NCBI RefSeq assembly: GCF_054482525.1
Contig: NZ_CM137006.1
Direction: 5' to 3' (one strand)
Length of the DNA stretch: 64,000 nt
Shown piece after piece: positions 48,001 through 51,000 of this stretch (its first letter is position 1; every line of letters begins with the position of its first letter). The position numbers were made by a program.

Positions 48001-51000
48001 GGATAGCCAAAAACAGGTGCCGATGCTGCTGTGGCTGTCGGAGGATTATCAAAAACGGTATCAGGTTGACCAGAACTGCCTGCAAAAACAGGCGCAAACG
48101 CAACACTATTCACAAGACAATTTATTCTCCACGCTATTGGGATTAACTGGCGTTGAGACGAAGTATTACCAGGCTGCGGATGATATTCTGCAAACTTGCA
48201 GGAGAGTGAGTGAATGAAAATTCTGATTGTTGAAGACGATACGCTGTTATTGCAGGGATTGATTCTGGCGGCGCAAACCGAAGGCTACGCATGCGATGGC
48301 GTGACAACCGCGCGGATGGCGGAACAAAGCCTTGAGGCCGGTCATTACAGCCTGGTAGTACTGGATTTAGGGTTACCCGATGAAGATGGACTGCATTTTC
48401 TCGCCCGTATCCGGCAGAAAAAATATACCCTGCCGGTACTGATCCTCACCGCTCGCGATACGCTGACCGACAAAATCGCCGGGCTGGATGTCGGTGCCGA
48501 TGACTATCTGGTGAAGCCTTTTGCGCTGGAAGAGTTACACGCCCGTATCCGCGCCCTGCTACGACGCCATAATAATCAGGGTGAAAGTGAGCTGATTGTT
48601 GGCAATCTGACGCTAAATATGGGTCGCCGTCAGGTCTGGATGGGCGGTGAAGAGTTGATTCTGACGCCTAAAGAATATGCTCTGCTGTCACGGTTAATGC
48701 TCAAAGCAGGCAGTCCGGTGCATCGGGAAATTCTCTACAACGACATCTATAACTGGGACAATGAACCCTCGACCAACACCCTGGAAGTGCATATCCACAA
48801 TCTGCGCGACAAAGTGGGCAAAGCCCGTATCCGCACCGTGCGTGGTTTTGGCTATATGCTGGTCGCAAATGAGGAAAACTAATTGAATCTGATGCGTTTT
48901 CTGCGCCGACCAATATCGCTGCGCCAACGGCTGATATTGACCATCGGGGCCATTTTGTTGGTGTTTGAGCTGATCAGCGTCTTCTGGCTATGGCATGAAA
49001 GTACCGAGCAGATTCAGCTGTTTGAGCAGGCGCTACGCGACAATCGCAACAACGATCGCCACATCATGCGTGAGATCCGCGAGGCGGTCGCCAGCCTGAT
49101 CGTCCCCGGCGTCTTTATGGTCAGCCTGACGCTATTTATCTGCTATCAGGCGGTACGCCGCATCACCCGCCCGCTGGCGGAGCTGCAAAAAGAGCTGGAA
49201 GCGCGCACCGCCGACAATTTAACGCCTATTGCCATTCACAGTGCCACCCTCGAAATCGAAGCGGTGGTTTCGGCGTTAAACGATCTGGTCAGTCGCCTGA
49301 CCAACACGCTGGATAACGAAAGGTTGTTTACCGCTGACGTCGCGCATGAACTGCGAACGCCACTGGCGGGGGTGCGTTTGCATCTGGAACTGCTGGCGAA
49401 AACGCATCACATTGATGTAGCACCGTTAGTGGCACGGCTTGATCAGATGATGGAGAGTGTCTCCCAGCTACTGCAACTGGCGCGTGCCGGACAGTCATTT
49501 TCTTCCGGGAATTATCAACATGTAAAACTGCTGGAAGATGTCATTCTCCACTCGTATGACGAACTCAGTACCATGCTCGACCAGCGACAGCAAAACCTGC
49601 TATTGCCAGAGAGCGCCGCCGACATCACCGTTCAGGGTGATGCAACCCTGCTGCGGATGTTATTGCGAAACCTGGTAGAAAACGCCCATCGTTACAGCCC
49701 GCAAGGCAGCAACATTATGATTAAGCTGCAAGAAGATGGCGGAGCGGTCATGGCCGTTGAAGATGAAGGACCGGGTATTGATGAGAGTAAATGCGGGGAG
49801 TTGAGTAAAGCGTTTGTACGTATGGACAGCCGTTATGGCGGGATTGGTCTGGGGTTAAGTATTGTCAGCCGCATTACACAGTTGCATCACGGGCAGTTTT
49901 TCCTGCAAAACCGGCAAGAGACTTCTGGCACGCGGGCCTGGGTACGGCTGAAGAAAGATCAGTACGTGGCAAACCAGATATAAAGAAAGCTGCTGACCAC
50001 CAGCACGCTGAACACGGTAGTTAAACTTTCATAAACACGGTTTTTCATTGCACTCTCCTCCGTTAACCTGGAGGAGAGTATGCGCGTCAGAGATTAAGTG
50101 AACCTTAAGAGTTCAATTGGCCTGATAAGACAGCGTCACATCAGGCCATCCGTTTCAGCTTATTCATCAATTCGCGGATGTTGCTGCACCAGGCGGGTAC
50201 GTTTCGCCTGCAAATCGGCAATCTCGTGGTCAATATCATCGATTTTCTGCTCGATATTATCGTAATGCTCGACGAGAATTTCCTTCGCTTCCTGTATATC
50301 TGACGCCGCCGGTGTCGCACCTTTCAACGGACGATTCGCCGTCTCTTTCATGGTTACGCCGGTGATTAAACCAACCACCGCCACTACCATCAGGTAATAG
50401 GCAGGCATCATCAGATTCTGCGAGCTTTCGACCAGCCAGGCCGCCAGTGTTGGCGTCAGACCGGCAACCAGCACCGAAATATTAAATGCCGCCGCCAGCG
50501 CGCTGTAACGGATATGCGTCGGGAACATCGCTGGCAAGGTAGAAGCCATAACGCCCGTAAAGCAGTTAAGGATCACCGCCAGCATCAGTAACCCGGCAAA
50601 AATCAGGCCGATGACGTTACTGTTAATCAGAATAAACGCCGGGATCGCCAACACAAACAGTGCAACACTACCAAGTAGCACAAACGGACGACGGCCAAAA
50701 CGGTCACTCAGCAAGCCCATCACCGGCTGGACAAACAGCATACCGATCATAATGGCGATAATAATCAGCACCCCGTGGTCTTCGGAGTAATGCAGGTTAT
50801 GCGACAAATAACTCGGCATATAGGTCAGCAACATGTAGTAAGTCACGTTGGTGGCAATTACCAGACCAATACATGTCAACAGGCTGCGCCAGTATTTAGT
50901 GGCAATCTCTTTAAACGAGACTTTCGGGCCATCCTGCAAACCTTCGCGGTCGCCCTGTTCCAGTTTATCAACATGCTGCTGGAACGCCGGAGTCTCTTCC

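What the first reader, a model, noticed from the sequence alone, without database searches (positions are those of the whole stretch)
49959..50078. pmrR small ORF antisense to the basS 3' end, with its Shine-Dalgarno in a perfect 9-bp hairpin
A 29-aa ORF on the minus strand overlaps the last 25 nt of basS. Its GGAGGAGAG ribosome-binding site lies 4 nt before the ATG and pairs perfectly with CTCTCCTCC 7 nt further upstream, a structure that could occlude translation initiation or act as a transcript-end hairpin for proP. A possible regulatory role of the hairpin is an inference.
Basis: partly seen in the sequence, partly recalled or inferred. Interest (0 to 1): 0.35.

Follow-up and report, generated by a model that had tools for sequence, protein, structure and literature searches.

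The report
pmrR start-site hairpin ends proP transcripts
The small gene is the already known pmrR, and the hairpin over its ribosome-binding site is real and conserved, but it most likely forms only in RNA reading in from the neighbouring proP gene, where it marks the RNA end and keeps pmrR silent.

Summary
A 29-aa ORF (49959-50048, minus strand) overlaps basS by 25 nt. Its GGAGGAGAG Shine-Dalgarno lies in a perfect hairpin, which is 10 bp with an 8-nt loop, not 9 bp and 7 nt.

The ORF is the known gene pmrR. It is annotated in 5408 of 5426 E. coli genomes, matches NCBIfam NF033224, and lies inside Rfam RF02052 (STnc630), whose consensus structure already contains this hairpin.

New here:
- The cassette (PmrA box, 10 nt, -10-like nAnACT, hairpin, SD, ATG) recurs in 45 distinct Enterobacteriaceae sequences, with compensatory changes in the stem.
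- The -10 hexamer and the 6 nt after it form the 5' arm. The PmrA-driven mRNA is therefore predicted to start at about 50069 and to lack that arm.
- Published Term-seq and RNAtag-seq data put an RNA 3' end 4-6 nt after the stem. There is no U-tract there, and a Rho termination region lies further downstream.

Best reading: the hairpin forms only in read-through RNA from the upstream gene (proP here, uvrB in most other genera). There it caps the 3' end and buries the pmrR SD, so PmrR is made only from the PmrA-initiated mRNA.

I found no direct transcription start site (TSS) data, so this last step is inferred. Interest is modest.

The parts
49959..50048 (-). pmrR coding sequence (29 aa plus stop). 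It encodes the small membrane peptide that inhibits LpxT.
   Evidence: ORF list. Annotated 'LpxT activity modulator PmrR' under the match in E. coli genomes. K-12 locus tag b4703. NCBIfam NF033224 at 74.2 bits, cutoff 30.
50052..50061 (-). 3' arm of the hairpin, GGAGGAGAGT. It contains the Shine-Dalgarno GGAGGAGAG (50061-50053), 4 nt before the ATG.
50062..50069 (-). 8-nt loop, AGGTTAAC. Its first base, A at 50069, is the most likely PmrA-dependent transcription start (predicted, not measured).
   Evidence: for the loop. In the alignment, the 7th nt after the -10 hexamer is A in 32 of 45 sequences; in E. coli the A is the 8th nt.
50070..50079 (-). 5' arm of the hairpin, ACTCTCCTCC (the anti-SD). 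It overlaps the last 3 nt of the -10-like hexamer and the whole stretch between the hexamer and the predicted start.
50077..50082 (-). -10-like hexamer CATACT, 10 nt downstream of the PmrA box.
   Evidence: Alignment columns 43-48 read [G/C]-A(43/45)-N-A(44/45)-C(42/45)-T(45/45).
50093..50109 (-). PmrA/BasR box CTTAAGGTTCACTTAAT, the binding site that replaces the -35 element.
   Evidence: One of only two exact YTTAAK-N5-YTTAAK matches in 64 kb (0.16 expected); the other precedes eptA. Deleting this box in E. coli abolishes PmrR function (PMC8129183).
50046..50048 (-). Mapped RNA 3' ends on the proP/pmrR strand, 4-6 nt after the stem.
   Evidence: Term-seq 3' end at K-12 4332116 (PMC7815308 supp. 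1). TRS peak at 4332117/8 (PMC10687069 supp.). Coordinates mapped through.
50160..51662 (-). proP, the upstream co-directional gene whose transcripts run into the hairpin.
50118..50148 (-). REP-like imperfect hairpin in the proP 3' UTR, upstream of the PmrA box.
   Evidence: 14-nt arms, 86% complementary. Weak naRNA4 (REP-derived) hit, below threshold.
48883..49983 (+). basS/pmrB, convergent with pmrR. Its last 25 nt overlap pmrR.

Best explanation
The locus is the known PmrA-activated small-protein gene pmrR.

The 10-bp hairpin is a conserved RNA structure whose 5' arm is built from pmrR's own promoter DNA: the last 3 nt of the -10 hexamer plus the 6-7 nt between the hexamer and the start site.

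- Transcripts started by PmrA-bound RNA polymerase begin at about 50069. They lack that arm and carry a free Shine-Dalgarno on a leader of about 21 nt, so PmrR is made.
- Transcripts that enter from the upstream co-directional gene (proP here, uvrB in most other genera) contain both arms and fold the hairpin.
- In those RNAs the SD and AUG are buried. The untranslated RNA downstream is then ended by Rho and trimmed back, and the hairpin is left as the stable 3' end of the proP mRNA.

Shown directly: gene identity, the hairpin, its covariation, the promoter elements, and the published 3' ends and Rho region.
Inferred: the position of the TSS, the silencing of translation in read-through RNA, and the link between Rho termination and trimming.
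For: 1. Identity. Rfam STnc630 at 181.8 bits, with the same hairpin in its consensus structure.

2. Conservation. In 45 distinct BasS-anchored sequences from about 20 genera, the named 11-pair stem is paired in 82.4% of cells, against 33-48% when the partner is slid. The covariation score is 0.264 against 0.156 +/- 0.014 in shuffles (0 of 500 reach it). Pair 49-70 reads AU17/CG8/GU7/GC6 and pair 50-69 reads UA30/UG7/CG6. RNAalifold recovers the core on its own.

3. Promoter geometry.
- PmrA box, then 10 nt, then nAnACT is nearly invariant, and the hexamer's A2, A4 and T6 are better conserved than their pairing partners.
- In the pbgP promoter, the PmrA box can be inferred to span about -37 to -21 from the PhoB comparison in the paper (PMC10570014). 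That geometry puts +1 at 21-24 nt after the box, which is window 50072-50069.
- Published subclones agree. pmrB plus 86 nt (ending at 50069) is inactive, plus 103 nt (to 50086, including the hexamer) is partly active, and plus 126 nt (to 50109, exactly the whole box) is fully active (PMC8004244).
- Deleting the box abolishes PmrR function (PMC8129183).

4. RNA ends. 3' ends lie 4-6 nt after the stem in two independent data sets. The TRS authors state that SEnd-seq shows termination of the upstream gene inside the pmrR CDS. A Rho termination region on the same strand peaks at K-12 4332468, with Rho score 8.6.

5. Energetics. Opening the SD-AUG region costs 16.4 kcal/mol on average in read-through RNA and 5.6 kcal/mol in the predicted short mRNA. 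The read-through cost is higher in 52 of 52 loci.

6. Context. The nearest upstream long ORF is co-directional in 43 of the 51 loci that have one: proP in Escherichia, and uvrB in those whose sequence I read. In several Kosakonia-group loci (e.g. L040, L060, L062) the uvrB stop codon lies inside the PmrA box, so nothing but this hairpin separates uvrB from pmrR.

7. PmrR made outside stress conditions slows growth, which gives a reason to insulate it (PMC11429745).
Against: - No experimental TSS for pmrR was retrieved, so the key step is a geometric inference.
- Many genera already have a terminator-like hairpin just upstream of the PmrA box. Read-through there should be low, yet the SD hairpin is still conserved.
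- G.U versus A.C counts do not single out the pmrR-sense strand overall (41 against 43). Only the 8 core pairs favour it (33 against 8), and the sequences are not phylogenetically independent.
- A reporter carrying the region upstream of pmrR showed no low-Mg induction in E. coli.
- The energy contrast follows partly by construction, because the short RNA has the arm removed.
Confidence: 0.5

Rival explanations
1. The whole hairpin lies in the 5' UTR of the PmrA-driven pmrR mRNA and throttles or regulates its translation. It could be opened, for example, by temperature, a standby ribosome, or pairing with the antisense basS 3' UTR. The mapped 3' end would then be a short attenuated leader.
For: The hairpin is stable (-22.7 kcal/mol in context) and covers the SD. 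PmrR dosage matters in both directions. A 3' end right after the stem could equally be a prematurely ended leader. Rfam's STnc630 boundaries start upstream of the PmrA box.
Against: For the whole 5' arm to be transcribed, the start would have to lie 13 nt or less after the PmrA box. That does not fit a box that replaces the -35 element and sits at about -37 to -21 in pbgP. It also ignores the conserved nAnACT hexamer. The +86/+103/+126 subclone series places essential promoter sequence within 50070-50109. The STnc630 boundaries include the PmrA box itself, so they cannot mark a PmrA-dependent start.
Confidence: 0.17
2. The hairpin works on the other strand, in the 3' UTR of the eptA-basRS (pmrCAB) mRNA. 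That UTR runs antisense through pmrR. The hairpin would act as an exonuclease barrier or stabiliser, or it would lock up the stretch complementary to the pmrR SD so that the antisense RNA does not block pmrR translation.
For: The repeat is perfect, so it folds on both strands. Mean MFE is -14.8 (sense) against -14.0 (antisense) across 47 loci, and overall G.U and A.C counts are equal. pmrB mRNA was about 315-fold lower with 86 nt than with 126 nt of downstream sequence (PMC8004244). pmrR-basS is listed as a convergent overlapping pair (PMC12288877).
Against: Neither supplement search returned a 3' end in K-12 43320xx, where a basS-strand end just past the hairpin would fall. basS is weakly expressed, so this is weak evidence. 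In other genera a terminator-like hairpin for the basS strand lies beyond the PmrA box (e.g. L016 2728-2758), so this hairpin is not the operon's terminator. In the 8 core pairs, wobbles favour the pmrR-sense strand 33 to 8. In the cited study the half-life of pmrB mRNA did not differ between constructs.
Confidence: 0.15
3. The hairpin is simply the canonical intrinsic (Rho-independent) terminator of proP, and its overlap with the pmrR SD is incidental.
For: A GC-containing 10-bp stem lies downstream of proP, with 3' ends mapped next to it.
Against: The stem is followed by UGCAAUGAAAAACC, not a U-tract, and the terminator scan does not call it. The 3' end lies 4 nt after the stem rather than 7-9 nt into a U-run. 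Compare the adiC terminator in the same window, whose 3' end is 7 nt into AAUUUUG. Transcription continues to a Rho region about 350 nt further on. The hairpin stays with pmrR, not with proP, when the upstream gene is uvrB.
Confidence: 0.08

Closest known systems
PmrR, the PmrA-activated 29-30 aa membrane peptide that inhibits LpxT (Salmonella: Kato et al. 2012, cited from memory, not readable here; E. coli: PMC8129183, PMC11429745)
   Same: Same gene, same position convergent with pmrB, same PmrA box. The protein matches NCBIfam NF033224.
   Different: Nothing differs for the gene itself. None of the papers I could read mentions the hairpin or its relation to the promoter.
Rfam RF02052 STnc630 ('Enterobacterial sRNA')
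   Same: Covers window 49952-50117 at 181.8 bits. Its consensus structure contains this hairpin.
   Different: The family is labelled an sRNA, but the region is the pmrR promoter plus the mRNA. The model detects only Escherichia and Citrobacter among the 20 loci tested, although the cassette is much more widespread.
Fold-back inhibition of IS10/Tn10 transposase translation in transcripts that read in from outside (Davis, Simons and Kleckner 1985; my own knowledge, not checked here)
   Same: Same logic. An inverted repeat has its 3' arm over the ribosome-binding site and its 5' arm upstream of the gene's own start. Only foreign read-through RNA folds it and is silenced.
   Different: This is a chromosomal small-protein gene, not a transposase. 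The 5' arm is the -10/discriminator of an activator-dependent promoter. The hairpin also marks a stable 3' end. The TSS and the silencing are untested here.
Hairpin-capped 3' ends of Rho-terminated transcripts trimmed by 3'-5' exonucleases, and REP stabilisers (general knowledge; Rho data from PMC7815308)
   Same: A stable stem without a U-tract, 3' ends a few nt after it, and Rho termination further downstream.
   Different: Here the hairpin also contains the next gene's SD and promoter core.
The adiC terminator / eptA PmrA box overlap in the same window (46495-46531)
   Same: The upstream gene's transcript-end hairpin is built from the promoter elements of the next PmrA-activated gene.
   Different: That one is a canonical terminator with a U-tract. 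It overlaps the activator box, not the -10 and SD.

Membership tests
PmrR (NCBIfam NF033224, LpxT activity modulator) | Protein scores above the curated cutoff of the equivalog model | tested here: met
   74.2 bits against a cutoff of 30, full length 1-29
PmrR (NCBIfam NF033224, LpxT activity modulator) | Gene lies convergent with and overlapping the 3' end of pmrB/basS, and is preceded by a PmrA box | tested here: met
   25-nt overlap. Box CTTAAGGTTCACTTAAT at 50109-50093.
PmrR (NCBIfam NF033224, LpxT activity modulator) | Peptide binds and inhibits LpxT | not testable with these tools
   Taken from the literature (PMC8129183)
Rfam RF02052 STnc630 | Covariance-model score at or above the gathering threshold | tested here: met
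   181.8 bits against 55, model positions 1-166
Canonical intrinsic terminator | G+C-rich stem-loop | tested here: met
   10 bp perfect, 6 G-C pairs
Canonical intrinsic terminator | U-tract immediately 3' of the stem, with the RNA end inside it | tested here: not met
   The tail is UGCAAUGAAAAACC. The scan does not call it. The 3' end is 4 nt after the stem.
Fold-back insulation of a ribosome-binding site against read-through (IS10 type) | 3' arm of an inverted repeat covers the SD or start codon | tested here: met
   GGAGGAGAGT at 50061-50052, ATG at 50048
Fold-back insulation of a ribosome-binding site against read-through (IS10 type) | 5' arm lies upstream of the gene's own transcription start | tested here: inconclusive
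   Predicted from the box/-10 geometry and the conserved A at hexamer+7 and consistent with the subclone series. No measured TSS was found.
Fold-back insulation of a ribosome-binding site against read-through (IS10 type) | Transcripts from upstream actually reach the hairpin | tested here: met
   Published 3' ends just after the stem, and the SEnd-seq statement about the upstream gene
Fold-back insulation of a ribosome-binding site against read-through (IS10 type) | Read-through transcripts are translationally silent and arm mutations relieve this | not testable with these tools
   Only the computed opening energies of 16.4 against 5.6 kcal/mol
Hairpin-capped 3' end of a Rho-terminated transcript | Rho-dependent termination downstream on the same strand | tested here: met
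   Rho region peak at K-12 4332468 (+), score 8.6, p = 2.7e-37 (PMC7815308 supp. 2)
Hairpin-capped 3' end of a Rho-terminated transcript | The 3' end depends on 3'-5' exonucleases stalling at the stem | not testable with these tools
   -

The most novel reading that the evidence does not exclude
A promoter-embedded anti-Shine-Dalgarno. The -10/discriminator DNA of the PmrA-dependent pmrR promoter doubles as the 5' arm of a hairpin that exists only in RNA arriving from the upstream gene. Across Enterobacteriaceae, whatever that neighbour is (proP or uvrB), the dosage-sensitive peptide PmrR would then be translated only from PmrA-initiated transcripts, and the same stem caps the neighbour's mRNA. 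A further possibility, untested, is that this 3' hairpin is where ProQ acts on proP mRNA.
Probability: 0.45. Interest if true: 0.5.

Novelty: new member of a known kind. Interest (0 to 1): 0.38.

Why it matters
- PmrR sets whether lipid A carries a 1-diphosphate or phosphoethanolamine. That choice trades polymyxin resistance against bile-salt resistance (PMC8129183).
- If the model holds, it explains how a 29-aa regulator sitting 112 nt behind a strongly regulated transporter gene is kept strictly under PmrA control.
- It gives a simple reading of a puzzling report that 103-126 nt downstream of pmrB are needed for colistin resistance. Those boundaries match the pmrR -10 hexamer and the PmrA box.
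- It suggests that the 'sRNA' STnc630 should be re-labelled.
- It shows that unnamed 30-aa ORFs downstream of pmrB in Klebsiella and related genera are probably PmrR counterparts. That is relevant to colistin resistance in those pathogens.

Tried and rejected
1. Direct TSS evidence, all without result:
- Kato 2012 (PMC3465083), Ju 2019 and Thomason 2015 are not held.
- The Cappable-seq and SMRT-Cappable-seq supplements had no entry near the site, in either U00096.3 or U00096.2 coordinates. The stored files may be truncated.
- A Salmonella ChIP-exo supplement gave only the STnc630 boundaries (LT2 4532537-4532696, 160 nt) and no TSS. No Salmonella sequence was available to map them.

2. Strand assignment from G.U against A.C asymmetry and from sense against antisense MFE. 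There was no net bias (41 against 43; -14.8 against -14.0 kcal/mol). Only the core pairs favour the pmrR strand. I treat this as inconclusive.

3. The generic sigma-70 promoter scan finds nothing here. That is expected for a promoter whose -35 is replaced by an activator box.

4. Canonical intrinsic terminator: rejected, because there is no U-tract.

5. The ugtS/ugtL two-mRNA case (PMC8896665) was considered as an analogue. It was dropped because there the short mRNA lacks the RBS altogether, rather than escaping a hairpin.

6. A search of the paper library for 'STnc630' returned nothing.
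Full report
**1. Observation**

The minus strand carries a 29-aa ORF at 49959-50048 with an ATG start, MKNRVYESLTTVFSVLVVSSFLYIWFATY. basS/pmrB on the plus strand ends at 49983, so the two genes overlap by 25 nt.

GGAGGAGAG lies at 50061-50053, followed by TGCA and the ATG. The inverted repeat is 10 bp perfect: ACTCTCCTCC at 50079-50070 pairs with GGAGGAGAGT at 50061-50052. The loop is 8 nt, AGGTTAAC.

The 61-nt context folds to -22.7 kcal/mol, against a shuffle mean of -11.5 (z = -4.2). Perfect stems of 10 bp or more are not rare in this window. There are about a dozen distinct ones, against about 0.9 hits per shuffle. The hairpin alone therefore proves little, and the weight rests on comparative data.

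**2. Identity**

- The 301 bases around the site occur in 5408 of 5426 complete E. coli genomes, where the listed records annotate the ORF as 'pmrR: LpxT activity modulator PmrR'. In K-12 it is b4703 at 4332116-4332205.
- The peptide matches NCBIfam NF033224 at 74.2 bits against a cutoff of 30.
- Rfam RF02052 'STnc630' covers 49952-50117 at 181.8 bits. Its consensus structure already contains this hairpin, with conserved arms and a variable loop.
- Within the 301 bases around the site, the window differs from K-12 at a single base, 49926. This is a synonymous change in basS and lies outside the feature.

What is published on function:
- Removing the PmrA box of pmrR in a pmrA-constitutive strain makes it polymyxin-sensitive. 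Deleting lpxT restores resistance (PMC8129183).
- The pmrR start codon is used in vivo (Ribo-RET) and is about 5-fold induced at low Mg. The peptide is membrane-bound. Both loss and excess of PmrR slow growth (PMC11429745).

**3. Surroundings**

Upstream on the same strand lie proP (50160-51662), a REP-like hairpin (50118-50148), and then CTTAAGGTTCACTTAAT at 50109-50093. That sequence is one of only two exact YTTAAK-N5-YTTAAK matches in the 64-kb window, where 0.16 are expected. The other match, CTTAAGGTTGGCTTAAT at 46511-46527, precedes eptA. Ten nt after the pmrR box comes CATACT (50082-50077). Its last three bases are the first three bases of the hairpin's 5' arm.

**4. Comparative evidence**

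A BasS-anchored scan of one genome per species gave 80 loci. Of 81 loci analysed (those 80 plus the E. coli record), 53 have a 28-33 aa hydrophobic ORF in the same convergent position. F21 and W25 are invariant in a 19-sequence sample. These loci belong to Enterobacteriaceae. The ORF is absent in Pectobacterium, Rahnella and Rouxiella.

Nearly all 53 loci share one cassette: PmrA box, 10 nt, nAnACT, the rest of the 5' arm, loop, SD-containing 3' arm, 0-7 nt, ATG. The distance from box to ATG is held to 41-46 nt.

In a 45-sequence alignment:
- The named 11-pair stem is paired in 82.4% of cells, against 33-48% when the partner is slid.
- The covariation score is 0.264, against 0.156 +/- 0.014 in shuffles (0 of 500 reach it).
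- Pair 49-70 reads AU17/CG8/GU7/GC6 and pair 50-69 reads UA30/UG7/CG6.
- RNAalifold predicts the same core independently.

The hairpin is therefore under selection as a structure.

**5. Where does the pmrR mRNA start?**

I could not retrieve a measured TSS. Three lines of evidence place it inside the hairpin.

(a) PmrA boxes replace the -35 element. From the PhoB comparison in PMC10570014, the pbgP box can be inferred to span about -37 to -21. The same geometry puts pmrR +1 at 21-24 nt after the box, which is window 50072-50069.

(b) The hexamer reads [G/C]-A(43/45)-N-A(44/45)-C(42/45)-T(45/45). Its A's are better conserved than their pairing partners, as expected of a -10 element rather than of a stem. 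The 7th nt after the hexamer is A in 32 of 45 sequences.

(c) The subclones of Xu et al. end at pmrB +86, +103 and +126, which are window 50069, 50086 and 50109.
- +86 removes the hexamer and the box, and gives no colistin resistance.
- +103 keeps the hexamer only, and gives partial resistance.
- +126 keeps exactly the whole box, and gives full resistance (PMC8004244).

The PmrA-driven mRNA should therefore carry at most 3 nt of the 10-nt 5' arm and have a leader of about 21 nt with a free SD.

**6. What RNA does contain the hairpin?**

- Term-seq lists a 3' end at K-12 4332116 (+). This is window 50048, the A of the ATG, 4 nt after the stem (PMC7815308 supp. 1).
- RNAtag-seq TRS finds a 3' end peak at 4332117/8. 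Its authors state that SEnd-seq shows the upstream gene terminating inside the pmrR CDS (PMC10687069).
- The stem is followed by UGCAAUGAAAAACC, not a U-tract, and the terminator scan does not call it.
- On the same strand a Rho termination region peaks at 4332468, antisense to basS. Its Rho score is 8.6 and p = 2.7e-37 (PMC7815308 supp. 2).

The simplest reading is as follows. proP transcripts run through the REP element and the pmrR promoter. They fold the hairpin, which buries the SD and AUG. They then continue untranslated until Rho stops them, and exonucleases trim them back to the stem.

Computed cost of opening the SD-AUG region is 16.4 kcal/mol in read-through RNA and 5.6 kcal/mol in the predicted short mRNA. 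The read-through cost is higher in 52 of 52 loci. This contrast follows partly by construction.

**7. Context in other genera**

- The nearest upstream long ORF is co-directional with pmrR in 43 of the 51 loci that have one. It is proP in Escherichia and uvrB in most other genera.
- In several Kosakonia-group loci (e.g. L040, L060, L062) the uvrB stop codon lies inside the PmrA box. There the SD hairpin is the only structure between uvrB and pmrR.
- Elsewhere a terminator-like hairpin abuts the box (L016, L018). This means read-through there is probably already low, and that weakens the argument that insulation is the sole selective force.

**8. Rivals**

That is incompatible with points 5a-c. 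I give it about 0.17.
- A role on the basS strand cannot be excluded. The repeat folds equally well on both strands, and overall G.U and A.C counts are 41 and 43. Xu et al. also saw 315-fold different pmrB mRNA levels. Against it, the supplement searches returned no RNA end just past the hairpin on that strand. The basS-strand terminator lies beyond the box in other genera. Core-pair wobbles favour the pmrR strand 33 to 8. About 0.15.
- A canonical proP terminator fails the U-tract test. About 0.08.

These readings are not mutually exclusive.

**9. Comparison with known systems**

- The gene is a member of PmrR and the region is a member of RF02052.
- The proposed mechanism works like IS10 fold-back inhibition (my own knowledge). 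In that system an inverted repeat silences the RBS only in RNA that reads in from outside, because the element's own transcript starts inside the repeat. Membership fails to be established on the untested TSS and translation features.
- The 3'-end behaviour matches hairpin-capped ends of Rho-terminated RNAs.
- The same window holds a sister arrangement. The adiC terminator palindrome (46495-46524, 13 bp, followed by AATTTTG) overlaps the eptA PmrA box. The adiC primary 3' end at K-12 4335633 maps to window 46531.

**10. Verdict**

The ORF is already known. The hairpin is real, conserved and already implicit in Rfam. No paper I could read discusses it.

My best explanation has confidence 0.5. 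It is a dual-purpose stem that forms only in read-through RNA: it is the 3' cap of the upstream mRNA and an insulator of the pmrR RBS. It is a new member of known kinds of element, of modest interest (0.38). A single 5'-RACE experiment would decide the main point.

Noticed in passing
window 46495-46531 (+): A 13-bp perfect palindrome, AAGCCAACCTTAAG-AA-CTTAAGGTTGGCTT, is followed by AATTTTG. It looks like the intrinsic terminator of adiC: the published primary adiC 3' end at K-12 4335633 maps to window 46531. Its 3' arm and U-tract contain the eptA PmrA box (46511-46527). So the upstream terminator and the PmrA-dependent promoter share the same bases, which parallels the pmrR case.
   Followed up: partly
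loci L008-L081, about 0-60 nt around the end of basS, minus strand (e.g. L018 K. pneumoniae, L058 Kluyvera ascorbata, L043 Enterobacter sp. Bisph1): Klebsiella, Raoultella, Kluyvera, Kosakonia, Phytobacter, Trabulsiella and others carry 30-aa hydrophobic ORFs ending in W-x-L-T-Y/F, with the same PmrA box and hairpin cassette. They look like PmrR counterparts. NCBIfam NF033224 and Rfam STnc630 do not recognise them, and where public records name them they are called 'hypothetical' or 'uncharacterised'.
   Followed up: partly
L040, L060, L062 (Kosakonia), upstream of the pmrR-like ORF: The uvrB stop codon TAA lies inside the first half-site (CTTAAT) of the PmrA box. uvrB and the pmrR-like gene therefore have no intergenic terminator.
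   Followed up: partly
window 49991-50005 (-), tail to about 49981: A terminator-like hairpin, TGCTGGTGGTCAGCA followed by GCTTTCTTTA, lies inside the pmrR coding sequence. It is also part of the Rfam STnc630 consensus structure. No mapped 3' end was seen at it in the data I could read. The listed 'primary' pmrR 3' end is at K-12 4332305, which is window 49859.
   Followed up: partly
window 50118-50148: A REP-like imperfect hairpin (GGCCTGATGTGACGCTGTCTTATCAGGCC on the proP strand) lies in the proP 3' UTR. It gives a weak, sub-threshold match to naRNA4 (REP-derived).
   Followed up: no
window about 49696 (-), which is K-12 4332468 (+): Published bicyclomycin data place a Rho-dependent termination region on the proP/pmrR strand, antisense to basS. 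Transcription from this side therefore penetrates about 260 nt into basS antisense before it stops.
   Followed up: partly
window 50069, 50086, 50109: The subclone end points of Xu et al. 2021 (pmrB +86, +103, +126) coincide with the predicted pmrR start, a point just upstream of the -10 hexamer, and the outer edge of the PmrA box. Their '3'-UTR effect' may therefore be a pmrR-promoter effect. It remains unexplained why the host's chromosomal pmrR did not suffice.
   Followed up: partly
window 49926: This is the only difference from K-12 MG1655 in the 301 bases around the feature. It is a synonymous TCT/TCC (Ser) change in basS.
   Followed up: yes
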